Below, in pieces: positions 1,391 to 27,031 of a stretch of DNA of 64,000 nucleotides. The notes under the pieces are model-generated. The model ran no database searches and was not told the origin of the DNA. It saw only the letters and a list, made by a program, of their open reading frames with translations. Within the stretch, counting starts at the first letter, position 1; every line of letters begins with the position of its first letter. The DNA is from a virus, in the IMG/VR virus record IMGVR_UViG_3300027779_001649, positions 24,824 through 88,823 of that record. One strand, given 5' to 3'. Made by a program: the position numbers and the translations under genes.

Positions 1391-2458
1391 CTATCCTATA
1401 CTTCTAATATCTTCTACTACATGGCGCATATCACCATCTATTGTTGCTTCATACTGTATTGGAGCAGACTGTTTTAATCTCTTTGTATCTTCTTCTGAGA
1501 TATCTACAATAGTACATCCATTAGCTACCGCATCGTCTTCATATTTCTTACAATCTTCCAGTGACCATTTTCGTTCTATCTTTGCAACCTTCTTAGCTGC
1601 AATAGTAAATGCTTCTTGTTGTTCAGAAGTCAAACTGTCAAATAGTGGTTGTCCTATCAAGATGGTAGTAAGAAACATACTATGATTAGATTTAAGTATA
1701 TTCTTACCAGAGAATCTAAGATACGTTGTTTCTACTGCACCTCCATTAGAAGCTGATTCTTTAATTTCCTGAATTTTTTGATTCATTCGTGGTTTTGCTA
1801 CAGCTCCAACATCACTAAATAATCTATCGGTATTAGGAGTTGTAACTAAATCTAATCCTTTAAGGTCATCCAAAGATGTTATTGGATGGTCAGACCCGAT
1901 AATACGGTATCCACCACTATAGGTAAATCCTAATCCCCTAACTCCACTGGTATCCCGACCATCTTTCTTATGGGTTGTAGAAGCCCATTCTCCCAGATGT
2001 AAGGTATCCAATAATTTCTGTCCTATAGAACCATCTAATGATTTTGTTACATGGTCATGGTCTTTAAATAAGAAGGGCAAATCTAAAAGAGAAAATCGTC
2101 TGTCAAGATGTCTACCAATAACAGTAACTTGAGTTTGACTCATATGAAATTTTTGTTCTCTAAGTCCTTGCCAAAATGCCGACCATTTCTTTCTGACATC
2201 CTTCCATTCAGAAGGAATAAACAACTTCTTTCTACCTTGGGGCATTTCCCAAGTTTCAAGAGATGTCTCTGCTGGTTTTAATCCTAATTCGGGAATATCA
2301 CCATATTTCTGGATATACTGTCCCATCATTAAAACCTCAACCTCAAACTGCCCAGGAAGTAACTTATCTAATTCCTTGGCAAATGCTTTTGCAGTTCGTA
2401 CAAAGAGGTATGCCGGTTGGTGGGCAATTAACCATCTTAAAACAACAGGATTACTCAT
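1391..2458 (-). CDS. DctP-like TRAP substrate-binding protein, no signal peptide
   Basis: LLDLPFLFKDHDHV, LGFTYSGGYRII, ITSLDDLKGL, NHSMFLT and FDSLTSEQQEAF match DctP; no hydrophobic N-terminus. Confidence 0.8.
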   Translation of the reverse strand: MSNPVVLRWLIAHQPAYLFVRTAKAFAKELDKLLPGQFEVEVLMMGQYIQKYGDIPELGLKPAETSLETWEMPQGRKKLFIPSEWKDVRKKWSAFWQGLREQKFHMSQTQVTVIGRHLDRRFSLLDLPFLFKDHDHVTKSLDGSIGQKLLDTLHLGEWASTTHKKDGRDTSGVRGLGFTYSGGYRIIGSDHPITSLDDLKGLDLVTTPNTDRLFSDVGAVAKPRMNQKIQEIKESASNGGAVETTYLRFSGKNILKSNHSMFLTTILIGQPLFDSLTSEQQEAFTIAAKKVAKIERKWSLEDCKKYEDDAVANGCTIVDISEEDTKRLKQSAPIQYEATIDGDMRHVVEDIRSIG

Positions 2459-7633: not shown

Positions 7634-7641
7634 TATAAATA
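7634..7641 (+). promoter_or_regulatory. Late promoter TATAAATA heading the HNH-like/TAXI operon
   Basis: Exact consensus 5 nt before ATG 7647; divergent from the gp18 promoter. Confidence 0.7.
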
Positions 7642-7966: not shown

Positions 7967-8902
7967 ATGAATATATTAAAAGGGCTTATCTTCGTCCTAG
8001 CACTAATGATTCCCAATACATTGTATGCCTTAGAACTTGGTACTACAAAAGGTACTGCAAATTACCAAACGGGTATCGCATTGTCAAAAGTAATCACACA
8101 ACATGGAGTAAAAATACACCCTGTACCACATAGAGGAACTAATATCTACACAGAACGAGTAAATGTTGGTAAATTAGATTTTGCTATTGCGGGTGCATAT
8201 CATCTATATTGGGCAAGGACAGGGACAGGCCCAGTTAAATATCCCCATAAAAATCTTCGTTTTGTAGCTAATCTACAAAACTTTAGAACCACATATGCAG
8301 TTAGAAATAATTCTAACATTAAGACTTATGAAGATTTAGAGGGTAAAAGAGTACCTTCGGGATTTGCAGGAGCACCATCCTTTCATTGGATGATGGAAGC
8401 AAATCTAGCAAACGGTGGGTTAACTTGGGACGATGTAACTCCTGTGCCTGTTACTTCATTACCAAAATGTTGGGCTGGTCTTCAAATTGGTACTATTGAT
8501 GTTTGCACCTTTGCAATAGGTTCTGGTTCTGCGAAGAAATTTAATATCCTAACTCCAGGCGGTCTGAGAGGTTTAAGTTCAAATATCGGTCAAAAAGAAC
8601 AGGATATGTTCAGAAATTGGAAGGGAGTAAGTATTGTTACTCAAAATCCTTCTGATAACTTATCTCTAATAAGGGGTAAAACTAGAGTCACGCAGTTTTC
8701 ATATCAGCTTTTCACAAATAAAGATGTGCCTGTTGATGTTGTAAAGGATGTTGTTCTTGCACTATACGAGGGAGGAGAAGACTTTCAAAAGTCCTCTGGT
8801 TTCACTAAGTCCTTTAAAAAGGAAAACATGAACAAGAATGTTACAATTCCTATGCACTCAGGTGCAAAGAAGGCTTATAATGAACTTGGACTTTCTGAAT
8901 AA
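7967..8902 (+). CDS. TAXI-family TRAP substrate-binding protein
   Basis: Signal peptide; LGTTKGTANYQTG, GTNIY, DFAI, IKTYEDLEGKRV, IPMHSGAKKAYNELG (TAXI PxHxGA motif). Confidence 0.88.
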   Translation: MNILKGLIFVLALMIPNTLYALELGTTKGTANYQTGIALSKVITQHGVKIHPVPHRGTNIYTERVNVGKLDFAIAGAYHLYWARTGTGPVKYPHKNLRFVANLQNFRTTYAVRNNSNIKTYEDLEGKRVPSGFAGAPSFHWMMEANLANGGLTWDDVTPVPVTSLPKCWAGLQIGTIDVCTFAIGSGSAKKFNILTPGGLRGLSSNIGQKEQDMFRNWKGVSIVTQNPSDNLSLIRGKTRVTQFSYQLFTNKDVPVDVVKDVVLALYEGGEDFQKSSGFTKSFKKENMNKNVTIPMHSGAKKAYNELGLSE

Positions 8903-10217
8903 GCTACTAACTGTACTACTTCTTATTGGGGTATCTAACATAGATTTCTATGTTGGGTATCCCTTTATGGATGAACAGTTATACTTTTTATTACTTCTTG
9001 TTAGTTTAAGCTGTATATTTAATAATATACTACTAATTCTAGGAGGAATTATATTATTCTTTGCATATCCCTACTTATCTGAATATGCTCTTTCAGAAGT
9101 AACGACCTTACGATTACTCGCAATACCTTTACTATCACTTATTTTCTGGAGTTTGTATAGAACCAGTGGTAGGGGGTTTGCAATTATTTTTGGTCTATTC
9201 TTATTATACCCATTTTTAGTATATAATCCAATAAAGGCACTTGACATTTTATCATTCATCGTAATTGATAATACTGCTATGTTAGGTATCGCAATGTATA
9301 TAATATGTGGTATAGTGTTTATGTTTGTTATATTTGGACAATTAATGGTGCATATTGGTCTGATTGATAAGTTAATGTATTATATTACCAGACACATAAA
9401 ATCCCCTGCTAGGGTTGCAATTATGTCCTCTGCCGTGTTTGGTAGTGTATCTGGTGCAGCAGTATCTAATGTTATGAGTACAGGACAACTTACAATCCCT
9501 CTCATGATAAAATGCGGTTATTCTAAAGTTAAAGCAGCTGCATATGAAGCAGTCGCATCTACTGGAGGACAACTCATGCCTCCAATTATGGGTGCAGCTG
9601 CATTTCTTATGGCAGAAACTCTATCTATATCATATTGGGAGGTTGTTAGGGTTGCGATAATACCTTCACTCTTATTCTATTCTATATTACTTTTAACAGT
9701 ACCCAAGGAAGAAAAAAAACACAGCCCGAGGATTATAAAAAAACGACTTCGGTATCCCCCCCTTGGTCAATTGGTGCTTGACACGGGTAATATAATGTCT
9801 GGACTAATAATTTTAGGCGCAGCTATAGGTTTAATCATAGGAATAATGGATCAAACTGGACTATCTTTCCATATTTCAACTTATATTATAGAATTATCGG
9901 GGGGAAACTCCTTTTTATTACTTTTACTCACTGCAGCTCTCTGTATAGTCCTTGGAATGGGTATGCCAACGGTATCAACCTATCTTATTGTTAGTGTTGT
10001 CGCAGCCCCTGCATTAGTAGAATCAGGATTTACTGAAATATACGCACATCTTTTTGTATTATATTATGGGTGTTTATCTTTAATAACTCCACCAGTTGCA
10101 ATATGTTCTTTTGCAGCTGCAAAGTTAAGTGGTGCAAATCCTATGGCAGTCTCATTAGAATCTGTATATATTGGGTGGCCGTTATTTCTAGTTCCATTCC
10201 TCTTTATAATGATGTAA
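8880..10217 (+). CDS. TAXI TRAP fused permease (4TM/12TM type), shortened to ~445 aa
   Basis: SSAVFGSVSGAAVSNV, TIPLMIKCGY, EAVASTGGQLMPPIMGAAAFLMAE, LGMGMPT, ITPPVAI. Confidence 0.9.
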   Translation: MNLDFLNKLLTVLLLIGVSNIDFYVGYPFMDEQLYFLLLLVSLSCIFNNILLILGGIILFFAYPYLSEYALSEVTTLRLLAIPLLSLIFWSLYRTSGRGFAIIFGLFLLYPFLVYNPIKALDILSFIVIDNTAMLGIAMYIICGIVFMFVIFGQLMVHIGLIDKLMYYITRHIKSPARVAIMSSAVFGSVSGAAVSNVMSTGQLTIPLMIKCGYSKVKAAAYEAVASTGGQLMPPIMGAAAFLMAETLSISYWEVVRVAIIPSLLFYSILLLTVPKEEKKHSPRIIKKRLRYPPLGQLVLDTGNIMSGLIILGAAIGLIIGIMDQTGLSFHISTYIIELSGGNSFLLLLLTAALCIVLGMGMPTVSTYLIVSVVAAPALVESGFTEIYAHLFVLYYGCLSLITPPVAICSFAAAKLSGANPMAVSLESVYIGWPLFLVPFLFIMM

Positions 10218-11381: not shown

Positions 11382-11692
11382 TACGATTCTGTTTCAGATC
11401 TCTCTAAGTCAATGTTATTTGATACGTTGTGCGTGTCTCTTGCATTTAACATAGACTGTACAGTTTCATCCTCAACCCAATCATTCTTTGCATCTTGGTT
11501 AAGAAATGAGTAGGTAACAGTTTTAACCAAACCATCATCTGATATGGATTCTCCAAGACCACCTATTTTATAGACTCTTTTACCAGTGTCTATAAAATTA
11601 GTTTTAAGATATGCTGTAACATCATCTGTCAGAGAATGCCAAGCTGTATCGGTGTTTGGTCTAGTGAGTTTTATTGTTCCATTTATTGCCAT
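11381..11692 (-). CDS. Small TRPNTD-motif protein (paralog A)
   Basis: AGGAG RBS; TAATG coupling to PP-loop gene; shares LTRPNTD, GKR, ISDDGLV and NARD with 21870..22172. Confidence 0.75.
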   Translation of the reverse strand: MAINGTIKLTRPNTDTAWHSLTDDVTAYLKTNFIDTGKRVYKIGGLGESISDDGLVKTVTYSFLNQDAKNDWVEDETVQSMLNARDTHNVSNNIDLERSETES

Positions 11693-13348: not shown

Positions 13349-13654
13349 TTATACTCCAAAACTTTCACCACATCCACAACTACTCGTAGATGTTGGATTT
13401 TTCACTGTTAGAAAACTACCACCGAGCTCGGTTATATAATCAATCTCACTACCCAAAACGTACATCTCAGCAAGTGGGTCAACCACAAGAACATCCTCTA
13501 TAGGCTCAGACCATTCAACATCAGGCAGATTGCTCTTCAGATTCCAGACATACTGGAAACCAGAACATCCTCCACCGACAACAGCCAGTGTTACAAAGTC
13601 TCCCTTAGATACAGACTTTAAGTAGTCTCTTGCAGATTGTGTTAATGTTACCAT
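13349..13654 (-). CDS. iscA: A-type Fe-S carrier (IscA/HesB family)
   Basis: GGGCSGFQY and C-terminal CGCGESF. Confidence 0.92.
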   Translation of the reverse strand: MVTLTQSARDYLKSVSKGDFVTLAVVGGGCSGFQYVWNLKSNLPDVEWSEPIEDVLVVDPLAEMYVLGSEIDYITELGGSFLTVKNPTSTSSCGCGESFGV

Positions 13655-13659
13655 ATCGT

Positions 13660-13667
13660 TATTTATG
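13660..13667 (-). promoter_or_regulatory. Late promoter CATAAATA, 5 nt before iscA ATG
   Basis: Overlaps gp16 stop; no RBS present. Confidence 0.6.
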
Positions 13668-14061
13668 TCTTTTCTTTCATTAATTTTTGTAACTCTGCTG
13701 TAGAACCAACAAATAAGGCGTTAGTTACATTCTTAGGTGCAGTATTAGGAACGTCCTGTAATCTTTTCATCTTCTCTTGTAAGTCACCTAGTTTTTCGGT
13801 AACTTCTGCGACCTGTTTGATAAGATTTCCAGCAACCTCATATCCTCTTGGATGTTCGCCTTCCTTTGCGAGTTCAAGTATTCCGTCAATCGCAACTGAA
13901 CCCTTTTCAACAAGTTCATGAAATTTTTGCCTTTGATATTCATAGTCTGTTTCAATATCCTGTTCCTTATCTGCGACAATTAGTTTTGTTACAGGAGTCT
14001 CTGTAACCTCTAATTCTTTTCCAATAACACCCAAGGCACTATCTATAGTTTTAGTATCCAT
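13663..14061 (-). CDS. gp16: Terminase small subunit
   Basis: DYEYQR, EHPRGYEV, NALFVGSTAELQK. Confidence 0.93.
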   Translation of the reverse strand: MDTKTIDSALGVIGKELEVTETPVTKLIVADKEQDIETDYEYQRQKFHELVEKGSVAIDGILELAKEGEHPRGYEVAGNLIKQVAEVTEKLGDLQEKMKRLQDVPNTAPKNVTNALFVGSTAELQKLMKEKT

Positions 14062-14442
14062 TTAGTTCACCTCTACTATCTCTTGGACTGATGTGGAATG
14101 AGAGTTATATGCTTCGCCAAATTCTTCTCTTAATTTGGTACTTATTGTAGTCGCACAATATTTTTTACATACCCTAGGAGCATTTTGTGGATCTTTTATT
14201 AAACCTTCATAAAATTCTGTCCATTCTTTAGAATTAATTATATCGTCAATAGTCTCTACATTACTTAGTTTTAAATGTTCTTTAAAGAATATTTCTTCAA
14301 TACCTATATGGTATGTTGGTGTTTGTCCATCAACAGTTTGATAGGGGTCTGTCCAACAACAAGGAATTAAATATCCCCTTGCAGAATAACCATAACCTTT
14401 ACCAGATAAACATCTGGGCTCTAATTTTCTTTTTACTGGCAT
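14062..14442 (-). CDS. Stand-alone SPASM/twitch-like Fe-S domain protein (start MPVKRK at 14442)
   Basis: PRCL...GYLIPCCW...PRVCKKYC; own GAGGAG RBS. Confidence 0.75.
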   Translation of the reverse strand: MPVKRKLEPRCLSGKGYGYSARGYLIPCCWTDPYQTVDGQTPTYHIGIEEIFFKEHLKLSNVETIDDIINSKEWTEFYEGLIKDPQNAPRVCKKYCATTISTKLREEFGEAYNSHSTSVQEIVEVN

Positions 14443-15290
14443 AATGAACTCCTCCTCAACCACTGTTCTTCATTCCAAGGAAGTTTATCATCCACATCCT
14501 TTACTCTATTATTAACTTCAGTAGTAGTAAATGGTTTGCTACTAATAAAATTTTTTGTATTTTTTGGTTTAAATTCATCATCATCTCCTCTCCATCTAGA
14601 AGAGTATAATTTTAAAAACCTAATACCAGCATCTGTTGCACGTTTCTGAACCTCATCTATGTGATCTTCATTATAACTAAAAACTATGCATTGTTGTTCA
14701 ACCTGTAACCCCATATATTTAGCTATCATCGCCATTTTCCAAAGTTTTTCACCGTCCTGATTAACTCTATACTTATGACTTTCTTCTGGTAATCCATCTA
14801 TACCAAATCTCCACACTGCTAGGGGATGTATTTCAAATGCCTTTTTATACCACTTCTCTGACCTATGTGAAGCTGCGGTTGCAATACATGTATAGACTTT
14901 TTCTTCATAACATCTACGTAAAATATCGTGGAACTTAGGATGGGCGGTTGGATCTGAAATTTGACCACAAAAAAGAATATTAGTAAAATGCATAAGAATC
15001 TTATCAAAATCTTCAAGGGACATATCGTGACCAGGCGGTTTCATGCCAGAGGCGGCATAATCCTGTCTCCTACATCTTGGACAGGCTAGAGGACATCTTG
15101 GAGATAAATCTATATTAATTTTAGTACGATACTTCGCTTTATATATTAATTCATCATTAGATAATTTATCGTTTGATCCCTTTGTCCAATGATCTCGTTG
15201 AGTGAGTATTGGTTTTTTTAAAGACCTTTTAGCTATCTGAGTTCTAAGATCTAGTTCTTTTAACTCACCTTTAGTGTATTCTACAGGCAT
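14433..15290 (-). CDS. Radical SAM enzyme (paralog 1)
   Basis: CPLACPRC (CxxxCxxC), CGQISDP, FGIDGL, YRVN. Confidence 0.9.
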   Translation of the reverse strand: MPVEYTKGELKELDLRTQIAKRSLKKPILTQRDHWTKGSNDKLSNDELIYKAKYRTKINIDLSPRCPLACPRCRRQDYAASGMKPPGHDMSLEDFDKILMHFTNILFCGQISDPTAHPKFHDILRRCYEEKVYTCIATAASHRSEKWYKKAFEIHPLAVWRFGIDGLPEESHKYRVNQDGEKLWKMAMIAKYMGLQVEQQCIVFSYNEDHIDEVQKRATDAGIRFLKLYSSRWRGDDDEFKPKNTKNFISSKPFTTTEVNNRVKDVDDKLPWNEEQWLRRSSLCQ

Positions 15291-17107: not shown

Positions 17108-17926
17108 TTATCCTACATGAAACATTATTGGGGGTTCATTACTTAATATCGTTGTTTCTATTTCTCTAATTTCTTCCTGAGCTTGTGTAAAGATAGCTGC
17201 ACCATCCATACTAACACCCCCCAGCATCGTAACTCCATTGAACTTAGAAAGATTTGCACCCCATTGACGTTTAATTAAAGCTGTTGCATATCTTTTTAGA
17301 TGGATGTCATCATAAATGTCTGTGTAAACTGAGGGATCTAATTTACGGAAACACTCTATAACAACATAGTCCTCTCCACCCACAAAGTCTGTAGACCAAT
17401 CGGCGTCAATATATAAACGATTTTGATGTTCCTTAAAACGAATAGGAGCTTCACCAACAAGAATATGTTCTAGTAAATCTAAATTATTCATCATCATCTG
17501 GTAATGGATAACAGAAGTGGAAGTCAGATCAAACAAATCGTTTAGATGTAACTGATAACGAGCATCAAACATATTTGCACCAGTTCCAGTTCCAGTTAAA
17601 GGAAATACCTGTACTACAGAGATAACTGAACTAGGTAATGGTATATAATTATTACCCTCAGACCAATCTGCGGTAATAGTATCATCTACTGTATCTGTTC
17701 CTGTAGTGGTTGTATTTGTTTTAGCTCTAGTAACTTCTGCTTCAGTAACCAAATGTTTGAGATACATTCTTTCAACACCATCATAATGATACTGTGCAAA
17801 ATACTGTAGTGCTTCGTCAATACGGTCATCTGTTTGGTCATCTGACACATTAATGTCAATCACTCCATAACCCAATGCTCGTAGACAATAAGTCTTAAAT
17901 GTTGCTTTTGTTGTTGGTACTGCCAT
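17108..17926 (-). CDS. gp13: Neck protein
   Basis: YCLRALG, INVSDDQ, YHYDG, YATALIKRQWGANLSKF. Confidence 0.95.
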   Translation of the reverse strand: MAVPTTKATFKTYCLRALGYGVIDINVSDDQTDDRIDEALQYFAQYHYDGVERMYLKHLVTEAEVTRAKTNTTTTGTDTVDDTITADWSEGNNYIPLPSSVISVVQVFPLTGTGTGANMFDARYQLHLNDLFDLTSTSVIHYQMMMNNLDLLEHILVGEAPIRFKEHQNRLYIDADWSTDFVGGEDYVVIECFRKLDPSVYTDIYDDIHLKRYATALIKRQWGANLSKFNGVTMLGGVSMDGAAIFTQAQEEIREIETTILSNEPPIMFHVG

Positions 17927-17945
17927 AATTCCCTACCTTTTACTA

Positions 17946-17953
17946 TATTTATA
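17946..17953 (-). promoter_or_regulatory. Late promoter TATAAATA upstream of gp13
   Basis: Exact consensus. Confidence 0.75.
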
Positions 17954-18452
17954 AAAGAAGAGGTCTGGTTACTACGCAATTATCATCATCAAAGTAACTC
18001 TGTTTGACGAAATTTACCCCAGTATATGCGTATAAAGCACTCAATTTTGGATATGACCATATAATTTCACATCCTCTTTTTCTTCCATAATCCATAGTCT
18101 CATTTAATAACCAAGTTGATAGACCTAATCCTCTATGTTTAGGATGTACCCATAACCCCCTAGACCTATAAATTTTAAGTCCACATTGAGATCCTGAGTT
18201 AACACCCACTATTTCTTCATATGATTCTCCATAATGACTAACGTATTTTATTGCTATAAAGACAGAAGTTTTGAGATACCTTTTAATATCTAACTGTCTT
18301 ATAACTTTATTTCCCTCCAAAGCCCATGTACTATGGGGATAAATGGTTTTCTTATTTTTCCATAAGTCCGACTTCCATACCTTATATATCTCCTCAAACG
18401 ACACGGGTTCTAGATAGTACAGCTTATTTTCCCCAGTAATAATCTGCGGCAT
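17949..18452 (-). CDS. GNAT-family acetyltransferase
   Basis: RSRGLWVHPKHRGLGLSTWLL acetyl-CoA motif A; WSYPK. Confidence 0.8.
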   Translation of the reverse strand: MPQIITGENKLYYLEPVSFEEIYKVWKSDLWKNKKTIYPHSTWALEGNKVIRQLDIKRYLKTSVFIAIKYVSHYGESYEEIVGVNSGSQCGLKIYRSRGLWVHPKHRGLGLSTWLLNETMDYGRKRGCEIIWSYPKLSALYAYTGVNFVKQSYFDDDNCVVTRPLLL

Positions 18453-19500
18453 AATTATAAGGAGTAAATGCTTTGTTCTTATAAGGAACTACTTTACTTG
18501 CCCATTTCTTTTGACTCGCAAGAACTTTCCGAAACCATTTGTTCTTTTTGGATTCTTCTTTAAACATAATATCTATGGTTTTCAATTCTGCAACAAGAAT
18601 ATCAGGTGGTGTCTTCATGATACGCACCCCATGCTTTTCAACCATTCTTGATAACGCTCTTGCGTTTTCGGATTGTATCCAAGTGAGCCACCACAGATAG
18701 GACTCATATGCAGCAGAACGCACTGAGGCACGTTGAGAGTCAGATAGACTCCTCCAGATACCACCATTAATAAGAAGGTCACCAGTATTACTATGTTCAT
18801 GTAAACTATTTAGATAGTAATATTTCCAGATAGTTGGAAACCCTAGTCTTTCATCTTCTAATCCACCGACAAATTCTGCACAGTTGATTACACCTTTCTG
18901 TCCAGCAGCAAGAATCTCTCCACCAGGCATACCAATAGTCTGCATACCCATACGAGCATATAGTTCTACATTAATGCCTGTCTGTCTGCACTTAAAGTTT
19001 TTAAGGTCTGCAAGGTTTTCAATTGGACGATGGAACCACCCCAAAGGTTGATTCTGAGTAGGCATAACAGGGAAAGGGACTACATCCAGTTTCAACACTT
19101 CTTGATAAAATGTACGATACATCTCTAGTCCACCACCGTGAAACATCCATCCAAGAAAATCAATACCATCCATTCCATATGGGCCTCCTAAAGGAGAGTT
19201 AAATAGTCCTAGAGTTTTATCCTTACCCACCCAATAATAACTCTGTGTCCATGCACCTCCCACAGCACCAGATGCTGTTGCATCAAGAACTTGAAAGGCT
19301 GGGACTAAAGCACCAGCAGGTTTAATCTCCATCAGAACTTTACCATCAGTTAGAACTTTAACTTTATCTGCAATGAACTTTGCTTGTTCATTGAAAGTAC
19401 TAACAGCAGGATAAGAACTTGCGATTAAGATTTTTGTGCCCGCAGATGCAGGGGAAAAGGTTAATAGGATGGCAGCCGCAGCCATATAAATATATTTCAT
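18424..19500 (-). CDS. dctP: TRAP substrate-binding protein, TakP-like (2-oxo/monocarboxylate subgroup)
   Basis: Signal peptide; PAGALVPAFQVLDA, YYWVGK, QPLGWF, DLKNFKCRQTG (conserved Arg), MPGGEI, CAEFVG. Confidence 0.9.
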   Translation of the reverse strand: MKYIYMAAAAILLTFSPASAGTKILIASSYPAVSTFNEQAKFIADKVKVLTDGKVLMEIKPAGALVPAFQVLDATASGAVGGAWTQSYYWVGKDKTLGLFNSPLGGPYGMDGIDFLGWMFHGGGLEMYRTFYQEVLKLDVVPFPVMPTQNQPLGWFHRPIENLADLKNFKCRQTGINVELYARMGMQTIGMPGGEILAAGQKGVINCAEFVGGLEDERLGFPTIWKYYYLNSLHEHSNTGDLLINGGIWRSLSDSQRASVRSAAYESYLWWLTWIQSENARALSRMVEKHGVRIMKTPPDILVAELKTIDIMFKEESKKNKWFRKVLASQKKWASKVVPYKNKAFTPYNYAADYYWGK

Positions 19501-19526
19501 GATTACTCCTTATTCAAATCACTTCT

Positions 19527-20771
19527 CTAGTTATTTAGGTACGTTGGTAACCACGTTGCTATACTAGGAATCATAAAAATAATTATCACAGCAAGTACCT
19601 GTATCCACATAAACGGCATCATACCTTTAAATATCATACCCAAATCCCATTCTGGAACGACCTGTTTTATATAATATGATGTTAACGCAACGGGTGGTGT
19701 TAAGTAGGCAGTCTGTATAACTATCCCTAAACAAACTGCAAACCATAACATATCCACACCAGAACTAATAAGAACTGGTAAGAATATGGGAACAAATACC
19801 AACACTACCACAGGCCATTCAAACGGCCATCCCAATAGATGACATAGTACTAGTATACAACCGACTAATGCCCAAGGGGGTATTGGTAAAGAATTTAAGG
19901 TGTCCACTATCACGTTATCGCCGCCTAGTGCAGTAAAGACCGCACCAAATATTGTGGAGGAGATTGCGAGTAGCATAACCACAGCAGAAGTGTCTGTAGT
20001 TTTTAATAGAGTTTCTTTCAGTTCTAACTTACCGTTTAACAATGCAAGAACTAATGCACCGAAAGCACCAAACGCACCAGCTTCTGTAGACGTTGCAAGT
20101 CCAAATAACATAGAACCTAACACAGTAGATATAAGAACTGCTAGAGGGATAACATCTATTAAAACTCTACGATAGTCTGGTGTCTCTTGTTGTTTGGGTA
20201 CAGAATGAAATAGACAGTATATCGCATACATTGATGCAATCATTAATCCTGGCACTAATGCTCCAGCATAAAGATCAATAATACTAAGGTTCATAGTAGG
20301 AGCCATAACTATAAGAGGAACGGATGGTGGTATCATAATAAGAGAACCACCACCAGCAATAACTCCTGCCGTCAATTTCGGATTGTAACCTAGTTTCATC
20401 ATATGAGGAGCTGCCATAATACCAAGTAATGTTACAGACGCACCAACTACTCCTGTCGCAAGACTTATCAATACTGCAATAACAATAACAACTAAGTTAA
20501 GATTACCAACTATAGTTTTCATACTATAGAATAGTTTCTCAACTAATCCTGCCTTTTCGCAAATATAACCCATGAATATAAACATAGGTATAGCCATGAA
20601 TACTTCGTTTGATAATGCGCCGACTAAGTTATAGTACGCAAGATCAAATACATTCTCCCCCATAGAGAGAAATCCAAAACCTAATGCTAGAAATATAAGA
20701 GTGAAAGCTACAGGTAAACCCAAAAATATACCTATAATCATAGTCACTAACATCACAATCGCAAGCAACAC
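19527..20771 (-). CDS. dctM: TRAP large permease
   Basis: GLPVAF, AIPMFIFMG, IPPSVPLI, ATSTEAGAFGA, YLTPPVA. Confidence 0.92.
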   Translation of the reverse strand: MLLAIVMLVTMIIGIFLGLPVAFTLIFLALGFGFLSMGENVFDLAYYNLVGALSNEVFMAIPMFIFMGYICEKAGLVEKLFYSMKTIVGNLNLVVIVIAVLISLATGVVGASVTLLGIMAAPHMMKLGYNPKLTAGVIAGGGSLIMIPPSVPLIVMAPTMNLSIIDLYAGALVPGLMIASMYAIYCLFHSVPKQQETPDYRRVLIDVIPLAVLISTVLGSMLFGLATSTEAGAFGAFGALVLALLNGKLELKETLLKTTDTSAVVMLLAISSTIFGAVFTALGGDNVIVDTLNSLPIPPWALVGCILVLCHLLGWPFEWPVVVLVFVPIFLPVLISSGVDMLWFAVCLGIVIQTAYLTPPVALTSYYIKQVVPEWDLGMIFKGMMPFMWIQVLAVIIIFMIPSIATWLPTYLNN

Positions 20772-21196
20772 TTCCTCACTTCCTGTACACCATATATCAA
20801 TAACAAAATTAATCCTAAAGTAATAGAAAATTTATATGGCCATATTATTAATTGCGTCATTGTATTGGAACTCTTTTCCCATATAGAAATGCTTCTAAAA
20901 CTATCCATTGCAGAATAGTACGTGAGAATACCAATAGAGGGAAAGAATAGACAGTAACCTAGAAGATCTATGATTGATTTTGTTCTATCTGAAAAGTTCT
21001 TCCAGTAGATATCTGTTCGTATGTGAGTTCCTTTGGAAAGACTATAACTAGCACCTAATATAATTAATGCGCCATATAATTGTGGTACGATATCAACAGC
21101 AAAGTCAAATCTTAAATCAAAAAAAAATCTACCTAGAACATTGGTAACAGTTAGTAAAACGATTCCCAAAACAAACCATGAATATATTTTAATCAT
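20753..21196 (-). CDS. dctQ: TRAP small permease
   Basis: Four hydrophobic segments, GRFFF, LGASYSL, HIRTDI. Confidence 0.88.
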   Translation of the reverse strand: MIKIYSWFVLGIVLLTVTNVLGRFFFDLRFDFAVDIVPQLYGALIILGASYSLSKGTHIRTDIYWKNFSDRTKSIIDLLGYCLFFPSIGILTYYSAMDSFRSISIWEKSSNTMTQLIIWPYKFSITLGLILLLIYGVQEVRKCCLRL

Positions 21197-21877
21197 CTAC
21201 TTCTTAATTTGCATATGAGCATTAAAACTCATACTCCTTCTTTCACCTTTAACATGAAATGGATAGACAAAGTGTTTTAAATAGGACGGAAAAACTAATA
21301 ACTTTCCAACCTCTGGTTTAAATTTTACACCATCACTTCGCATATCACAAGCCTCTCCATACATAAATTCAATCAAACCATTCGCAGGGTAATGGTCTTC
21401 ACCATCCTCTTGATATTCTCCTTCCATCTCATCAGGTAATTTTAAATAGATGACGGCTGAAAAGTCACCACTATGTTTATGCCAAGGATTATACTCCCCA
21501 GCATATTGACTGACTATCCAGCTCTGTGTTAAATGGATGTTATCTAATTGGGGAACAGTACTATGTCCTGACATCTTGTACCAATTATATGCTCTATTCT
21601 TGTCTCTTATATAATTTAGGTAGTCCAGACATCCCCTCTTCATAGTATCAGAGAGATACTTCTTATCATCATCAGAGGAAATTGGTATCTGAATTTCCTT
21701 ATGAACCTTGCCTACCAGATTATCAGACCAATCCCATTGAGCACTTTGTTGCTCACTACTTAGTATCTTGTCTCCAACCTTATTTACAATTTTAACGAAC
21801 GTCTCTGGTACAGAGGTTTCTAAAATCGTAGGACTGAATACTTCATGCCAAATCTTATCCCCTCTTATCTTAGTCAT
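21197..21877 (-). CDS. 2OG-Fe(II) oxygenase (HxH...H...R type)
   Basis: YNPWHKHSG, FPSYLKHFVYPF, ERRSMSFN. Confidence 0.85.
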   Translation of the reverse strand: MTKIRGDKIWHEVFSPTILETSVPETFVKIVNKVGDKILSSEQQSAQWDWSDNLVGKVHKEIQIPISSDDDKKYLSDTMKRGCLDYLNYIRDKNRAYNWYKMSGHSTVPQLDNIHLTQSWIVSQYAGEYNPWHKHSGDFSAVIYLKLPDEMEGEYQEDGEDHYPANGLIEFMYGEACDMRSDGVKFKPEVGKLLVFPSYLKHFVYPFHVKGERRSMSFNAHMQIKK

Positions 21878-22172
21878 CTATTTCTTCATTTGCGGCAGAT
21901 GCGGTTATCTCATTTTCAATACAGTAAATATCTCTTGCATTAAAAAACTCTTGGGCATCTGCTTCTTCGTTAAAATTAAATCTACTTTCATAAGTATCAA
22001 ATAATGCTATTGCCGTCATTACCAAACCATCGTCTGAAATTATCTTAGAGACAATTCGCCGTTTTCCTGACTTATCATATTTCCAACTAAGTGTATGAAA
22101 TTTTTCTGACATTGGATACCATTCAACATCTGTGTTCGGACGGGTTAAAGTATACGTTTGTTTAACACTCAT
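21870..22172 (-). CDS. Small TRPNTD-motif protein (paralog B)
   Basis: LTRPNTDVEWY, SGKR, ISDDGLV, NARD shared with 11381..11692. Confidence 0.75.
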   Translation of the reverse strand: MSVKQTYTLTRPNTDVEWYPMSEKFHTLSWKYDKSGKRRIVSKIISDDGLVMTAIALFDTYESRFNFNEEADAQEFFNARDIYCIENEITASAANEEIDD

Positions 22173-22869
22173 TTAAATTGTTCTCCTTTACTGGGCTTCG
22201 TCTATTATAAAATACTTTTCCTTCAGAACTTATTCCATAGACACACCCCTGTTCATATTTATATGTTCTAATCATATGATTACTCATCTGGGGGCCTCTC
22301 TCTATGTATTTGTTGTTTGCCCAACCCTCAAATGATGGATGCAGATAAAATGGTTGAAAATTTTCTATAGGAAAAGAATCCCCTTGAAAATTACTAAGAA
22401 CATTCCAAGATTGTGTTAAAAGGAAATATCTAACTCTCTCTTTCCACCGTCTATCCACAAAGGTAAACAGAGTACTGTATTCATGGGGAGTAACAACTAC
22501 CCGTGTCAGTATACGAGGATTATTTATATTAAATTTAAATAATTGATCTGAAGGACATACTTCTTTAAGATATTTTGAGACAACATCATCCTCATACACC
22601 TCTATCTCCTTGTCCATATCTCTTAACTTACAGGCCCTTTCGTAACATAATTGTGTAAATCCTTTATCATCTAGATCATTATTATATTCATATGGTGGAG
22701 ATTTGTAGTATGTACCATCCATTTCAAATGGGGTATCAATAAACTCACCCTCTTTGTCATTCACATAACTGTAGGACGGTTGACCATACTTAATAATCAA
22801 GTCATGTTCTTTTATACTCTTCGCAGATTTGACATTGCGTAGCTCTGGTGTAACATAAACAAATTTCAT
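22162..22869 (-). CDS. PP-loop-family paralog lacking the SGGxDS motif
   Basis: RACKLRDMDKEIEVY...LKEVCPSDQL and RYFLLTQS...ENFQPF align to 25874..27031. Confidence 0.65.
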   Translation of the reverse strand: MKFVYVTPELRNVKSAKSIKEHDLIIKYGQPSYSYVNDKEGEFIDTPFEMDGTYYKSPPYEYNNDLDDKGFTQLCYERACKLRDMDKEIEVYEDDVVSKYLKEVCPSDQLFKFNINNPRILTRVVVTPHEYSTLFTFVDRRWKERVRYFLLTQSWNVLSNFQGDSFPIENFQPFYLHPSFEGWANNKYIERGPQMSNHMIRTYKYEQGCVYGISSEGKVFYNRRSPVKENNLNEC

Positions 22870-22874
22870 ATCAA

Positions 22875-22882
22875 TATATATA
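22875..22882. promoter_or_regulatory. Palindromic bidirectional late-type promoter TATATATA
   Basis: Centred in an 18 bp divergent gap, exactly 5 nt from each ATG (22869 minus, 22888 plus). Confidence 0.65.
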
Positions 22883-22887
22883 AGGGT

Positions 22888-23544
22888 ATGGAACCACCTT
22901 ATAGATTAGGTCTTGTTGCCACCAGTAGAAGTGGAAGTACATATTTTCGTAGATATCTTTGCGATAAATATGGTCTACACGATTCGGCCTCATGGTTAAA
23001 ACACAATCCCTATGAAAAGATAAATGAAGCCCCCTTTGCAAAGAAACATCATATTCTAAAAATTCTAACACACTATGTTCCTGATGATGAAATAGATGAA
23101 GTTATATCAGAATCAGAAACAGTATGGTTATATAGAAAGAATACGTTTAAGCAGTTTCTCTCTCATGTCTACCGACTAATAACCAAGATAAATTTGGTAT
23201 ATAAGAAGGAAGAAATAGAGTTTTTAAAAAATAGTATTCCAAACAATAGTATTGTAGCCACAACAGAACAATACGATACTTTCATGAGAAGACTTGAAAA
23301 ATTTTGGGATTTATTTTATAGTAGAAATAAAGGAACACTAGTAGAATATGAAAAATTTGTTTCTGATCCAAAAGAAGTTGGTTGGGAAATTATGGAAGAC
23401 TATAATTTAGAATGGATAACGTGGGAATCTATGGAGCCGGAATCACATGGATGGCCTGATATTAAAATACCATTGAAAATGTCCATAGATTATGAAAATA
23501 AATTTAAAAATATAGAGGAAATTAGGAAATGGTTTAATGGGTAG
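22888..23544 (+). CDS. Sulfotransferase-like P-loop protein (Stf0-like)
   Basis: ATSRSGSTYF 5'-PSB loop, LYRKN..KQFLS, VEYEKF. Confidence 0.7.
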   Translation: MEPPYRLGLVATSRSGSTYFRRYLCDKYGLHDSASWLKHNPYEKINEAPFAKKHHILKILTHYVPDDEIDEVISESETVWLYRKNTFKQFLSHVYRLITKINLVYKKEEIEFLKNSIPNNSIVATTEQYDTFMRRLEKFWDLFYSRNKGTLVEYEKFVSDPKEVGWEIMEDYNLEWITWESMEPESHGWPDIKIPLKMSIDYENKFKNIEEIRKWFNG

Positions 23545-25414: not shown

Positions 25415-25892
25415 ACCAAGATGTATATCAGGACAATGTTTAGGGCATTCTAATAAGGGGTACTTAGTTCCTTGTTGTTTTGTAGATGCATTTTATGATA
25501 ATATTGAGAAAAAGAAACTCATACATCATGATAACGATAAACTTAATGCATTGTGGGATACATCCTTAAAAATTTCCAATAATAACCATATACATGATAT
25601 AACAATGAGTGATATATGGATGGATTTTTATACCATGTTACAGGATAAAGATCAAGAGAAACCTTTAATGTGTATTAAGTGTTGTGACCCTGTATATACT
25701 AAGGAGTTAAAAGAAGGTGAAATAGCTCCAACACGATTTAGCCAGAAGACTAATCCAGTACATGCTGTCAGCAGAAGAAGTACAGAAGTAACTCATGTGA
25801 TAAAGATTAATAGTATGTCAGTAAATGATGAACTTTTGGTGATGACCTCATCTGGCCGACCTAAGCCAAAAGATTATAAACAAAGAGAATGA
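25392..25892 (+). CDS. Stand-alone SPASM/twitch-like domain protein
   Basis: KPRCI...GYLVPCCF...PLMCIKCC. Confidence 0.75.
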   Translation: MTHSDQFKPRCISGQCLGHSNKGYLVPCCFVDAFYDNIEKKKLIHHDNDKLNALWDTSLKISNNNHIHDITMSDIWMDFYTMLQDKDQEKPLMCIKCCDPVYTKELKEGEIAPTRFSQKTNPVHAVSRRSTEVTHVIKINSMSVNDELLVMTSSGRPKPKDYKQRE

Positions 25893-27031
25893 CGGTCAAG
25901 ATAATCCATGATGTTATCCTTATGAACTATCGTTCCATCATTAACAATCGCCTTCACCCTAAAATCATTAGGTAATGGTGAGTAGAACTCTTTCTGAGCT
26001 CTTCCTTCCATCAATCTAGTTTTTCCTATACCATATGCAAATTCCCTATCATATAATGCAATGAAGTCTCTCAACATCATCTTTGCTTTCTGGAATCTTT
26101 CTGGGTCACTCCTAGGACTGTGATTATACCAAAACATATTTCTATTATAATGTTGATTAATTGACCACTTGTGTATATCTGGATCTCTAAAGAACGGCTG
26201 ATAATTTTCTAGGTCAATCTCATCTGCTTTTATATTTTGTAAGAAACGGAATGACTGTGTGATGAATGTATACCGTGTTATTGTCCACCACATTTCATAA
26301 TTCCATTCCTCATTTTCTGGGTCATCTAGATTTGGTTTCTTTCTTGGGTCTATTGCATACCCCAATGGTTTGTTGGGATCACGAACTGCGTCATCTACTT
26401 GTGGGGGGTAACCGACACTACCAAACAATCTATCAGCTTCGCACCCACTAGTATAAACATTAATATCTGGATTCGCCATACCATAAATGTTTCCTGTCAT
26501 ATCTAAACGATGCGGGCCTTTAATAACATAATCTTCCCATAACTTGGGATAATGTTTAATAACTGCGTCACCTCCAGCAATGATATGCAGCTGTTCTCTA
26601 GGACAAACTTCTTTCAGTGCGTATAACATAGCAGTACTATCTACACCACCAGAATAGAATACCTCAATATGTTTACCCATATCTCTTAATTCTTCTGCAC
26701 GTTTAATCATAAGGTCATTAAAGTCTGCGTTCTCTACCTCTGGATAATATTTGTAATCCAAAACAGGATAATACTTTTCCATATTATCCATATTAAACAC
26801 ATATTCATCTACACCCAAAGAATCACTTATGTATGAACTCTTAGGACGATGGCAATATTGAGTCATAAATTCTTCACGTTGTCTCGCTTCCTTATACTCT
26901 TCAAAGAACTCTTTCTCAAATTCAGGCCATCCGTACTGTCCCTTTCTAGGCGCACCTTTAACAACCTTATCCATAGCCCTTCTGAAGTCATCAGAAATAT
27001 ATACATACTTAATTGTGCTTTTCATAGTCAC
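25874..27031 (-). CDS. Asparagine-synthetase-like PP-loop enzyme (paralog 2)
   Basis: YSGGVDST, SGCEADRLFGS, AKMMLRDFI. Confidence 0.75.
   Translation of the reverse strand: MTMKSTIKYVYISDDFRRAMDKVVKGAPRKGQYGWPEFEKEFFEEYKEARQREEFMTQYCHRPKSSYISDSLGVDEYVFNMDNMEKYYPVLDYKYYPEVENADFNDLMIKRAEELRDMGKHIEVFYSGGVDSTAMLYALKEVCPREQLHIIAGGDAVIKHYPKLWEDYVIKGPHRLDMTGNIYGMANPDINVYTSGCEADRLFGSVGYPPQVDDAVRDPNKPLGYAIDPRKKPNLDDPENEEWNYEMWWTITRYTFITQSFRFLQNIKADEIDLENYQPFFRDPDIHKWSINQHYNRNMFWYNHSPRSDPERFQKAKMMLRDFIALYDREFAYGIGKTRLMEGRAQKEFYSPLPNDFRVKAIVNDGTIVHKDNIMDYLDRHSLCL

What the first reader, a model, noticed from the sequence alone, without database searches (positions are those of the whole stretch)
17949..21877. 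Complete DctQMP transporter co-transcribed with a 2OG-Fe(II) oxygenase and a GNAT
Seen: the oxygenase stop (21197) abuts the dctQ start (21196), dctP overlaps the GNAT gene, DctP keeps its signal peptide and Arg, and a CCTAAATA box (19532-19539) may boost dctP. Known: TakP-like DctPs bind 2-oxoacids/monocarboxylates. Inference: the phage imports the co-substrate or carbon skeleton for its oxygenases, or secures pyruvate-type carbon for an oligotrophic host. A second full TRAP in one phage is striking.
Basis: partly seen in the sequence, partly recalled or inferred. Interest (0 to 1): 0.8.

Follow-up and report, generated by a model that had tools for sequence, protein, structure and literature searches.

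The report
Complete TRAP acid importer in phage
An uncultured marine T4-like phage carries all three genes of a bacterial-type, binding-protein-dependent importer for small organic acids, a cassette that a whole group of related phages keeps intact, whereas the neighbouring oxygenase gene is only a chance, dispensable neighbour.

Summary
Observation confirmed. Window 18424-21196 (- strand) encodes intact dctQ, dctM and dctP. A 2OG-Fe(II) oxygenase gene abuts it upstream and a GNAT gene overlaps it downstream. Phage genes lie on both sides (neck genes gp13-15; portal 67% identical to Methylophilales phage Melnitz).

DctP is TakP-type. The best PDB matches are 2HZL and 7UG8, and all six TakP ligand/cation positions are kept. 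Two pocket residues, Q86 and N238, are invariant in the phage clade and differ from TakP and from the cellular relatives.

The cassette recurs on 21 IMG/VR contigs at 75-99% DctP identity, in at least five genome positions. It is under purifying selection. The phage sequences form a clade with no cellular relative above 55% identity, so contamination is excluded.

The proposed link to the oxygenase is not supported:
- Contigs of three other runs, and locus L008, join dctQ directly to the upstream small gene, skipping 681-691 bases, that is, the 681-base oxygenase ORF.
- TakP does not bind 2-oxoglutarate.
- The CCTAAATA box is the last codons of dctM.

The "second TRAP" is a TAXI-type pair at 7967-10217. 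The substrate is unknown; the head group is probably an alpha-keto or alpha-hydroxy acid. This scan had already found the same kind of cassette on other phage genomes (e1-5882961, e1-5882972).

The parts
20753..21196 (-). dctQ, small TRAP membrane subunit (147 aa)
   Evidence: PF04290, 4.9e-19, profile 1-127 of 132. 55-80% identical copies lie in 10 phage loci, and dN/dS is 0.08-0.17 where dS is not saturated.
19527..20753 (-). dctM, large TRAP permease (408 aa from ATG 20753; alternative GTG start at 20771 gives 414 aa)
   Evidence: PF06808, 7.6e-60, profile 1-412 of 413. TIGR00786 scores 217.6 bits, below its cut-off of 268. The ATG overlaps the dctQ stop by 1 nt. dN/dS is 0.07-0.15.
18424..19500 (-). 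dctP, periplasmic solute-binding protein of the TakP type (358 aa, with signal peptide)
   Evidence: PF03480, 2.2e-27. PDB sequence hits 7ug8 at 7.6e-41 and 2hzk at 1.4e-38. The AF2 model has pLDDT 88.7, and TM-score is 0.85/0.91 to 2hzl_B. Ligand residues Y89, Q151, R172, E209 and E235 are invariant.
19506..19511 (-). AAGGAG ribosome-binding site 5 nt before the dctP ATG
   Evidence: Read. A GGAG-type site 5-9 nt before the ATG is present in most related loci.
19532..19539 (-).
   Evidence: The window's late genes are preceded by a perfect TATAAATA.
21197..21877 (-). 2OG-Fe(II) oxygenase gene (226 aa), a variable insert rather than part of the conserved cassette
   Evidence: PF13759, 1.7e-17; phrog_81, 2.8e-28. 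Contigs of runs X3 and X8 join 21200 to 21882 (skip of 681), and a contig of X13 joins 21212 to 21904. The gene is absent from L008.
17949..18452 (-). GNAT acetyltransferase gene (167 aa), translationally coupled to dctP
   Evidence: PF00583, 5.2e-08. It overlaps dctP by 29 nt here. In L006, L007 and L008 one base fewer puts the GNAT body in frame directly after the dctP stop, with no ATG, GTG or TTG. dN/dS is 0.29 against L008.
21870..22172 (-). 100-aa protein of unknown family, directly upstream of dctQ in relatives that lack the oxygenase
   Evidence: No Pfam, PHROG or NCBIfam match. A 49% identical copy abuts dctQ in L008.
22256..22263 (-). TATAAATA, candidate T4-type late promoter for the run from the small gene through the oxygenase and dctQMP to GNAT
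   Evidence: It lies 84-91 nt upstream of the small gene's ATG. L008 has TATAAATA at the corresponding distance of 91 nt. It lies inside coding sequence, so it is only a candidate.
17946..17953 (-). TATAAATA late promoter of gp13, which closes the unit
   Evidence: It lies 20 nt before the gp13 ATG. 7 of the 9 minus-strand TATAAATA sites in the window lie 20-45 nt before a gene start.
7967..10217 (+). Second TRAP system, TAXI type: binding protein 7967-8902 and fused permease 8838-10217
   Evidence: PF16868, 4.3e-22; TIGR02122 and TIGR02123 are both above their cut-offs. The pair is conserved in L009 at 47% and 58% identity.
1391..2458 (-). Leaderless DctP-like protein with no adjacent permease
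   Evidence: PF03480, 2.4e-24. It has no N-terminal hydrophobic stretch. Relatives lie next to the dctQMP cassette in L010, L014, L018, L021, L024 and L025.

Best explanation
The region holds a self-sufficient TakP-type TRAP transporter that is maintained by phages. DctQ and DctM form the sodium-gradient-driven membrane unit. DctP is exported by its signal peptide to the periplasm, binds a small alpha-keto or alpha-hydroxy monocarboxylate together with a cation, and delivers it to DctQM.

The three genes are translationally coupled. In this phage they are probably read as part of a late transcript that starts upstream of the small 100-aa gene and ends before the gp13 late promoter. Installed in the infected cell, the system gives the cell an uptake capacity that the phage brings with it, most simply extra carbon or energy for a nutrient-poor marine host.

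Shown here: gene integrity, family membership, conserved ligand-head-group residues, conservation and purifying selection across phages, and mobility of the cassette. Inferred: export, assembly in the host membrane, timing, the substrate and the benefit.

The oxygenase gene is an independent, dispensable insert. The GNAT gene belongs to the slot next to gp13. Neither is part of the conserved transport unit.
For: Integrity and family.

TakP type:
- PDB sequence hits 7ug8 and 2hzk.
- AF2 model with pLDDT 88.7; Foldseek TM-score 0.85/0.91 and rmsd 1.9 A to 2hzl_B; next hits are 7ug8 (alpha-ketovalerate plus Ca) and 2zzv (lactate plus Ca).
- TakP residues Y100, Q156, R177, E214, W215 (backbone) and E240 (PMC1839085, passages read) map to Y89, Q151, R172, E209, F210 and E235. 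The five side-chain positions are invariant in 45 of 45 phage-clade rows and 52 of 52 cellular rows.

Phage context:
- Neck proteins gp13, gp14 and gp15 lie directly downstream.
- The portal is 66.9% identical to Melnitz and 64.6% to Mosig.
- GC is 0.35-0.39, like the rest of the window.
- Contigs of run X2 with 0 differences bridge every junction.

Conservation:
- 21 IMG/VR contigs carry DctP at 75-99% identity.
- Q-M-P order is kept in all 10 distinct loci that cover all three genes.
- T4 portal is present in 3 of 5 large records.
- The 44 rows with 72% identity or more form a starred clade (SH-aLRT 96) and all 45 lie on one side of a branch (support 76), with no cellular row inside.
- Identity drops from 62% or more (30 clusters) to 55% or less for DctP. 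DctM behaves the same way, 56% or more against 51% or less.
- dN/dS is 0.07-0.17 for Q, M and P, like gp15 (0.09) and terL (0.05-0.06).

Mobility:
- The cassette lies next to gp13 (window, L008), terL (L009), gp23 (L010, L012), a DnaB-like helicase (L016) and a radical SAM gene (L026).
- Between the window and L006, dctP is 96-99% identical in nucleotides while gp13 to terL is 71-90%.

Late expression in relatives: TATAAATA lies 13 and 28 nt before dctQ in L010 and L012.
Against: - No expression data.
- No ligand or transport assay exists for any member of the phage clade.
- The tail pocket differs from TakP: Q86 for V97, N238 for P243, G240 for V245, F36 for I47 and Y30 for F40. The TakP substrate range therefore cannot be transferred.
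- DctP and DctM score below NCBIfam's own cut-offs (46.9 against 50; 217.6 against 268), although above Pfam's.
- Late-gene timing is an odd choice for a nutrient importer.
- Most dS values exceed 1, so the dN/dS ratios are rough.
- The host is unknown.
- The phage-clade proteins that are not on IMG/VR contigs are assumed, not shown, to be viral. Only the most distant one, P0030, was examined, and its context looks phage-like.
Confidence: 0.75

Rival explanations
1. Supply line for a phage tailoring pathway. The importer brings in an organic acid that is not burnt but is used as a building block. It would be taken over in the cytoplasm by leaderless DctP-like binders and activated by the phage's PP-loop-type enzymes, with radical SAM enzymes, oxygenases, sulfotransferases and the GNAT acting further on.
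For: - Leaderless DctP-like genes lie within about 1.5 kb of the cassette in L010, L014, L018, L021, L024 and L025, which represent about 3 lineages.
- They occur in 4 of 5 large records that carry the cassette.
- They are not found among 50,697 GenBank phage records, apart from 4 weak hits at 24-26% identity.
- Paralogs of the window's SGGVDS-motif proteins lie next to dctQ in the window (a degenerate copy), L008, L009 (5 copies) and L014 (3 copies).
- The cassette sits among about 25 non-structural enzyme genes.
Against: - Record G003 (85% complete) has the cassette but no DctP-like second gene.
- L012, L016, L026 and L042 show neither neighbour.
- These phages carry several PP-loop-like paralogs, 4 in this window, so some adjacency is expected by chance.
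- The leaderless proteins are not TakP-type: they lack the Q151 and E235 equivalents (a low-identity alignment).
- The PP-loop assignment rests on a motif and one weak PHROG hit at 8e-4. There is no Pfam or PDB sequence hit.
Confidence: 0.15
2. One reading: the transporter imports 2-oxoglutarate (or its carbon skeleton) for the phage's 2OG-Fe(II) oxygenases and forms an operon with one of them.
For: - The oxygenase stop abuts the dctQ start.
- The window holds at least three PF13759 genes.
- The phage-clade pocket has two invariant polar residues, Q86 and N238, that could contact a polar tail.
Against: - The oxygenase ORF is absent in contigs of X3 and X8 (skip of 681) and, give or take ten bases, in a contig of X13 (skip of 691 with 10 other bases in its place). 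These come from three studies. It is also absent from L008.
- None of the 9 other distinct loci has an oxygenase homolog next to dctQ. Neighbours were identified by blastp to this genome's proteins for all loci, and by Pfam for 4 upstream neighbours.
- TakP shows no binding of alpha-ketoglutarate (PMC1839085).
- There is no basic residue at the pocket positions examined.
- 2-oxoglutarate is a central intracellular metabolite (general knowledge).
Confidence: 0.07
3. Host contamination or a chimeric assembly: the TRAP genes belong to a bacterium and were joined to phage DNA by the assembler.
For: - TRAP genes are typical cellular genes.
- PHROGs v4 holds no family for any of the three.
- No isolate phage in GenBank has a homolog.
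Against: - The same junctions appear in independent IMG/VR contigs from other samples (L006, L007, L008) and in contigs of runs X2, X3, X8 and X13.
- Phage genes lie on both sides.
- No cellular protein exceeds 55% identity among 5.8 billion clusters.
- Composition matches the phage.
- Divergence of dctP between phages tracks that of terL and gp15 in L008.
Confidence: 0.01

Closest known systems
TakPQM of Rhodobacter sphaeroides (TakP structures PDB 2HZK/2HZL)
   Same: - Three-component TRAP system.
- Same fold: TM-score 0.85/0.91, rmsd 1.9 A.
- All six residues that hold the carboxylate, the 2-oxo group and the bridging cation are kept.
- The sequence alignment runs into the long C-terminal helical region.
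   Different: - 29% identity.
- The hydrophobic tail pocket of TakP is replaced by Q86, N238, G240, F36 and Y30.
- Encoded by a lytic-type phage.
- Dimerisation and ligand are untested.
Ketoacid-binding TRAP solute receptor of Synechococcus CC9311 (PDB 7UG8, alpha-ketovalerate plus calcium)
   Same: - Best sequence hit in the PDB, 7.6e-41.
- Marine organism.
- Same head-group residues, and Phe after the cation-binding Glu, as in the phage.
   Different: - It has Ala, Pro and Leu where the phage clade has Q86, N238 and G240.
- Cellular gene.
- No paper on this entry was found in the library; the entry title is.
Phage-encoded PstS of cyanophages and pelagimyophages
   Same: A phage carries a periplasmic binding protein of a host-type nutrient uptake system, thought to raise uptake during infection (PMC12379486, passages read).
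   Different: - PstS is a single component that plugs into the host's own ABC transporter, and it is about 60% identical to the host protein according to that paper.
- Here the phage brings the binding protein and both membrane subunits.
- No cellular relative exceeds 55% identity.
Lactate-binding TTHA0766 of Thermus thermophilus (PDB 2ZZV)
   Same: Same subfamily and fold (TM-score 0.81/0.88). A cation-bridged alpha-hydroxy acid binder according to the entry title.
   Different: 25% identity. The pocket was not compared residue by residue, because its alignment was not printed.

Membership tests
TRAP transporter, DctPQM type | Family-7 extracytoplasmic solute-binding protein (PF03480) | tested here: met
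   96.6 bits against a cut-off of 23.4. NCBIfam TRAP_S1 scores 46.9 against 50, just below.
TRAP transporter, DctPQM type | Full-length large permease DctM and small subunit DctQ, adjacent to the binding protein | tested here: met
   PF06808 covers profile positions 1-412 of 413. PF04290 covers 1-127 of 132. The genes are contiguous in Q-M-P order.
TRAP transporter, DctPQM type | Export signal on the binding protein | tested here: met
   An N-terminal basic, hydrophobic, Ala-x-Ala stretch is present. Comparable leaders are seen in the N-termini printed for all 45 phage-clade rows. The AF2 model is disordered at residues 12-19 before the first strand. No dedicated signal-peptide predictor was available.
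TRAP transporter, DctPQM type | Conserved arginine that pairs with the substrate carboxylate | tested here: met
   R172 aligns with TakP Arg177 and is invariant in 101 of 101 rows.
TRAP transporter, DctPQM type | Sodium-gradient-driven, binding-protein-dependent uptake | not testable with these tools
   Needs a transport assay.
TakP-type cation-dependent alpha-keto acid binding proteins | Cation and 2-oxo-acid head-group ligands (Tyr100, Gln156, Arg177, Glu214, Trp215 carbonyl, Glu240) | tested here: met
   The equivalents are Y89, Q151, R172, E209, F210 (backbone) and E235.
TakP-type cation-dependent alpha-keto acid binding proteins | Fold and C-terminal helical extension | tested here: met
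   Top Foldseek hits are 2hzl_B and 7ug8. Helices 299-319, 321-344 and 351-356 are present in the model. Helix swapping and dimer formation are not testable here.
TakP-type cation-dependent alpha-keto acid binding proteins | Hydrophobic pocket for an aliphatic tail (Y99, F40, V97, V245, A212, P243, T153, I47) | tested here: not met
   The phage has Y88, Y30, Q86, G240, C207, N238, T148 and F36. Q86 and N238 are invariant in 45 of 45 phage-clade rows. Cellular relatives have V or I in 50 of 52 rows at the first position and no Asn at the second.
TakP-type cation-dependent alpha-keto acid binding proteins | Measured binding of 2-oxo monocarboxylates | not testable with these tools
   Needs DSF or ITC.
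Phage auxiliary metabolic gene | Host-type metabolic gene inside a bona fide phage genome, conserved among phages and under selection | tested here: met
   Contigs of X3 and X8 skip 681 bases, exactly the ORF, and a contig of X13 skips 691 bases. The gene is absent in L008, and other genes lie upstream of dctQ in 9 further distinct loci.
T4-type late transcription unit | TATAAATA shortly upstream of the first gene | tested here: inconclusive
   In the window the nearest site lies inside the upstream gene, 84-91 nt before the small ORF. Perfect sites lie 13 and 28 nt before dctQ in L010 and L012. The count of 12 sites in the window is not above chance (9.08 expected; 20 of 100 shuffles reach 12).

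The most novel reading that the evidence does not exclude
The importer is the entry point of an undescribed late phage pathway. A small polar alpha-keto or alpha-hydroxy acid taken from seawater would be captured in the cytoplasm by leaderless DctP-like proteins and activated by the phage's PP-loop-type enzymes. It would then be built into a phage product, such as a modified small protein, virion component or metabolite, instead of serving as fuel. The phage-specific pocket (Q86, N238) would mark a substrate that no characterised TRAP system carries.
Probability: 0.15. Interest if true: 0.85.

Novelty: new variant of a known kind. Interest (0 to 1): 0.6.

Why it matters
Known phage uptake genes are mostly single binding proteins, such as PstS, that borrow the host's transporter. 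Here a group of abundant marine T4-like phages, relatives of phages that infect SAR11 and OM43, carries a whole secondary transporter of its own. These phages keep it under selection, move it as a cassette between genome positions and exchange it between backbones.

It has no close cellular counterpart and a binding pocket of its own. That means infected cells may take up a compound that uninfected cells handle differently or not at all, which bears on how viral infection redirects dissolved organic carbon in the ocean.

The work also gives a clean test case: one soluble protein to express and screen.

Gene abutment in the hypervariable region of these phages is not evidence of a shared function.

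Tried and rejected
- Nucleotide search of the 3.9-kb region against GenBank phages: no match.
- DctP by tblastn against the same collection: only two unannotated short Listeria-labelled records at 25% identity.
- PHROGs: no family for DctP, DctM or DctQ.
- GTDB pattern scan: 13 loci, best 52% identity (Burkholderiales-type MAGs); Pelagibacteraceae hits only about 30%. No donor lineage could be named, and the pattern method sees only relatives that share exact peptides.
- Context of the most distant clade member, P0030 (62% identity): metagenome contigs with many tiny ORFs, 7 of 10 larger ORFs without any Pfam family, plus ClpP and radical SAM. This looks phage-like but is not proven.
- Sigma-70 promoter scan at chance level (29 found, 32.2 expected). 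Terminator-like sites: 6 found against 3.3 expected, none in an intergenic spacer of the unit.
- No tRNA genes in the window.
- Expression: no RNA holder listed, so nothing can be said about transcription.
- Read laying also listed one joint, 17883 to 22926 (skip of 5042), in a single X2 contig with a 41-letter side and unknown letters between. It is too weak to claim a variant that lacks the whole block.
- PDB sequence searches with two of the PP-loop-like proteins found nothing.
- Literature searches found no paper that describes a phage-encoded TRAP transporter.
  - PMC7029224 (passages read) says only that freshwater pelagimyophages lack genes related to 'substrate transport'. It has no occurrence of 'TRAP' in the main text.
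  - A search for the PDB code 7UG8 found no paper.
- Rows left out of the tree: even-numbered P0032-P0120; redundant IMG/VR loci L011, L015, L019, L020, L022 and L023; L038 (no open frame found); L039 (short).

Full report
**What is there**

Pfam assigns them as follows:
- GNAT acetyltransferase, 17949-18452.
- DctP, 18424-19500.
- DctM, 19527-20771, full-length against the profile.
- DctQ, 20753-21196, full-length against the profile.
- A PF13759 2OG-Fe(II) oxygenase, 21197-21877.

The junctions, read from the sequence:
- The oxygenase stop codon is followed directly by the dctQ ATG.
- The dctQ TGA shares its A with an in-frame dctM ATG at 20753. This ATG is probably the real start. Pfam position 1 aligns just after it, and several database relatives are 408 aa long.
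- A 26-nt spacer with AAGGAG precedes dctP.
- The GNAT ATG lies 29 nt inside dctP.

The CCTAAATA word is real, but it is made of the last codons of dctM.

**Is it phage?**

The window is the larger part of an 88.8-kb IMG/VR record, which CheckV rates 49% complete.
- Directly downstream of GNAT lie the T4-type neck genes gp13, gp14 and gp15, followed by the terminase, tail sheath, tail tube, portal and prohead protease genes.
- The portal protein is 66.9% identical to that of Methylophilales phage Melnitz and 64.6% to Pelagibacter phage Mosig.
- In Melnitz, tail-fibre genes lie directly upstream of gp13. The cassette therefore sits at the neck-side edge of the hypervariable 'host recognition cluster' described for pelagimyophages (PMC7029224, passages read).
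- GC content across the cassette (0.35-0.39) matches the rest of the window.
- Contigs of an independent run (X2), identical to the window, bridge all junctions. Diverged contigs of three further runs cover the same arrangement.

Contamination or chimerism is excluded.

**Which kind of TRAP?**

- The best PDB sequence hits of DctP are the ketoacid-binding receptor 7UG8 (7.6e-41) and TakP, 2HZK (1.4e-38).
- An AlphaFold2 model built from 61 aligned sequences has pLDDT 88.7 and pTM 0.85.
- Its best Foldseek match is the closed, pyruvate-bound TakP (2hzl_B; TM-score 0.85/0.91; rmsd 1.9 A). Next come 7UG8 (alpha-ketovalerate plus calcium) and, further down, the lactate-plus-calcium binder 2ZZV.
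- The TakP paper (PMC1839085, passages read) names the residues that hold the carboxylate, the 2-oxo group and the bridging cation: Arg177, Tyr100, Gln156, Glu214, the Trp215 carbonyl and Glu240.
- In the pairwise alignment these are R172, Y89, Q151, E209, F210 and E235 of the phage protein.
- The five side-chain positions are invariant in all 45 phage-clade rows, all 52 cellular rows and nearly all of the 4 outgroup rows.

The tail pocket is different.
- TakP lines it with Y99, F40, V97, V245, A212, P243, T153 and I47.
- The phage has Y88, Y30, Q86, G240, C207, N238, T148 and F36.
- Q86 and N238 are invariant in 45 of 45 phage-clade rows.
- The cellular relatives have Val or Ile in 50 of 52 rows at the first position and never Asn at the second.
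- None of the four solved relatives whose alignments were printed has Gln or Asn there.

The head group is therefore very probably an alpha-keto or alpha-hydroxy carboxylate bound with a cation. The rest of the substrate cannot be read off. TakP itself shows no binding of alpha-ketoglutarate.

**Relatives**

- Two scans of IMG/VR, one with the protein and one with the alignment, return the same 21 contigs, with DctP at 75-99% identity.
- All 10 distinct loci that cover the three genes keep the order Q-M-P.
- Three of the five large records examined (116-244 kb) have a T4-type portal.
- The cassette lies in at least five different places:
  - beside gp13 (window, L008; L006 and L007 show the dctP-GNAT-gp13 side);
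  - beside the large terminase (L009);
  - behind the major capsid gene gp23 (L010, L012/L013);
  - behind a DnaB-like helicase and a RecA-like gene (L016);
  - behind a radical SAM gene (L026).
- Among 5.8 billion protein clusters, DctP relatives fall into 30 clusters at 62-100% identity, and the next best is at 55% or less. DctM behaves the same way: 56% or more, then 51% or less.
- In a quick maximum-likelihood tree of 101 rows, the 44 rows with at least 72% identity form a starred clade (SH-aLRT 96). P0030 sits at its base. No cellular row lies inside. The 52 cellular rows, which include Burkholderiales-type and other MAG proteins, form the other side.
- The context of P0030 looks phage-like.
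- Nei-Gojobori dN/dS against 11 loci, where dS was not saturated:
  - dctQ: 0.08-0.17 (6 of 11 pairs).
  - dctM: 0.07-0.15 (8 of 11 pairs).
  - dctP: 0.08-0.12 (7 of 11 pairs).
  - For comparison: gp15 0.09, terL 0.05-0.06, gp13 0.14-0.18, GNAT 0.29.
  - dS is mostly above 1, so these ratios are rough.
- Between the window and L006, dctP is 96-99% identical in nucleotides. So is a PP-loop-like gene 8 kb away (95-99%). The structural genes between them are 71-90% identical. Accessory blocks are evidently exchanged between backbones.

**The oxygenase and the GNAT**

- Contigs of runs X3 and X8 join position 21200 to 21882, skipping 681 bases. That is the length of the oxygenase ORF, 21197-21877, to within the 5 shared letters at the joint.
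- A contig of X13 joins 21212 to 21904. These contigs are 84-88% identical to the window.
- IMG/VR locus L008 has the same oxygenase-free arrangement: the 100-aa gene directly abuts dctQ.
- Short contigs matching the inside of the oxygenase ORF are also present in X3, X8 and X13.
- The oxygenase is therefore a dispensable insert, not part of the conserved unit.
- The other distinct loci have a variety of genes upstream of dctQ: PP-loop-like paralogs, a nitronate-monooxygenase-like gene, gp23, a helicase, a radical SAM gene or unknown genes.
- GNAT lies beside dctP only in the window, L006, L007 and L008. In L014 a 38% identical GNAT stays with gp13, five genes away from dctP.
- An oddity at the dctP/GNAT junction:
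  - The window has one extra A at the dctP stop, which brings the ATG at 18452 into the GNAT frame.
  - L006, L007 and L008 lack this base, as do the contigs of X3, X8 and X13.
  - In those relatives the GNAT body follows the dctP stop in the same frame, without any ATG, GTG or TTG, and starts with an invariant CTG.

**Promoters**

- Seven of the nine minus-strand TATAAATA words in the window lie 20-45 nt before a gene start, among them gp13, gp18 and gp5 (with the ORF list).
- The nearest one upstream of the cassette (22256-22263) lies inside the preceding gene, 84-91 nt before the 100-aa ORF. L008 has one at the matching distance.
- In L010 and L012 a perfect TATAAATA lies 13 and 28 nt before dctQ.
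- In L010, L014 and L016 one lies 74-81 nt before dctP.
- Late expression is therefore likely in relatives and plausible here.
- The window's own CCTAAATA differs at two positions and is conserved only where the DctM C-terminus is conserved.
- What is widely conserved before dctP is a strong ribosome-binding site.

**The other TRAP genes**

- The window also holds a TAXI-type binding protein with a leader, and a fused permease, at 7967-10217. Both score above NCBIfam cut-offs, and the pair is conserved in L009.
- It also holds a leaderless DctP-like gene at 1391-2458.
- Leaderless relatives of that gene lie next to the dctQMP cassette in L010, L014, L018, L021, L024 and L025, and occur in 4 of 5 large carrier records.
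- They are absent from GenBank phages, apart from four weak hits.
- This, together with the recurrent PP-loop-like neighbours, is the basis of the bolder pathway reading. I rate that reading at about 0.15.

**Verdict**

- The TakP-type assignment is right for the head group.
- The link to the oxygenase, the 2-oxoglutarate idea and the promoter box are not supported.
- No paper describing a phage TRAP transporter turned up in seven library searches.
- Earlier follow-ups of this scan reached the same general reading on other phage genomes.
- New here:
  - the dispensability of the oxygenase;
  - the phage-specific pocket residues;
  - the number of insertion sites;
  - the mosaic exchange between backbones;
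  - the junction oddity at GNAT.

Noticed in passing
window 18424-18452; L006 1340-1350; L008 5806-5815: A one-base difference at the dctP stop. Only the window (and the identical X2 contig) gives GNAT an ATG start. In L006, L007 and L008, and in the contigs of X3, X8 and X13, the GNAT body follows the dctP stop (TAG or TAA) in the same frame, with an invariant CTG and no usual start codon. The cause could be termination-reinitiation, an unusual start codon or read-through; this is unresolved.
   Followed up: partly
window 10538-11437 and 18569-19768, compared with L006: Mosaic identity. dctP and a PP-loop-like gene are 95-99% identical in nucleotides between the two phages, while gp13 to terL between them are 71-90% identical. 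Accessory blocks seem to be exchanged between backbones.
   Followed up: partly
window 7967-10217 (+): A TAXI-type TRAP pair: a binding protein with a leader, and a shortened fused permease of 459 aa against a 615-position model. A TATAAATA lies at 7634-7641 upstream. The pair is conserved next to terL in L009.
   Followed up: partly
window 1391-2458 (-): A leaderless DctP-like protein between the prohead protease and the portal gene. It lacks the TakP-type Gln and Glu equivalents, and a Val stands at the Arg position in a low-identity alignment. Two subfamilies of such proteins flank the dctQMP cassette in other phages.
   Followed up: partly
window 22162-22869 (-), compared with 25874-27031 (-): The gene upstream of the 100-aa ORF is a shortened paralog of a protein that carries an SGGVDS motif. 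In the shortened copy the motif is replaced and 5 residues are missing. None of these proteins has a Pfam family or a PDB sequence hit.
   Followed up: partly
window 21870-22172 and 11381-11692 (-): Two paralogous proteins of about 100 aa and no known family, each directly downstream of a PP-loop-like gene. One abuts dctQ in relatives that lack the oxygenase.
   Followed up: no
L012 480-548: Behind gp23 there is a G+C-rich hairpin with a T run, and then TATAAATA 28 nt before dctQ. This is a clean terminator-plus-late-promoter arrangement for the cassette in that phage.
   Followed up: no
window 13349-15290 (-): An IscA-like Fe-S assembly gene, a SPASM-domain gene and a radical SAM gene are wedged between the terminase and neck genes. 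They are conserved in L006-L008.
   Followed up: no
runs X3-X10: Runs labelled as hydrothermal vent metagenomes hold 23-31% of the region's sampled words. Laid contigs from X3 and X8 are 85-94% identical relatives. This hints that the phage group is common in deep or plume water.
   Followed up: partly
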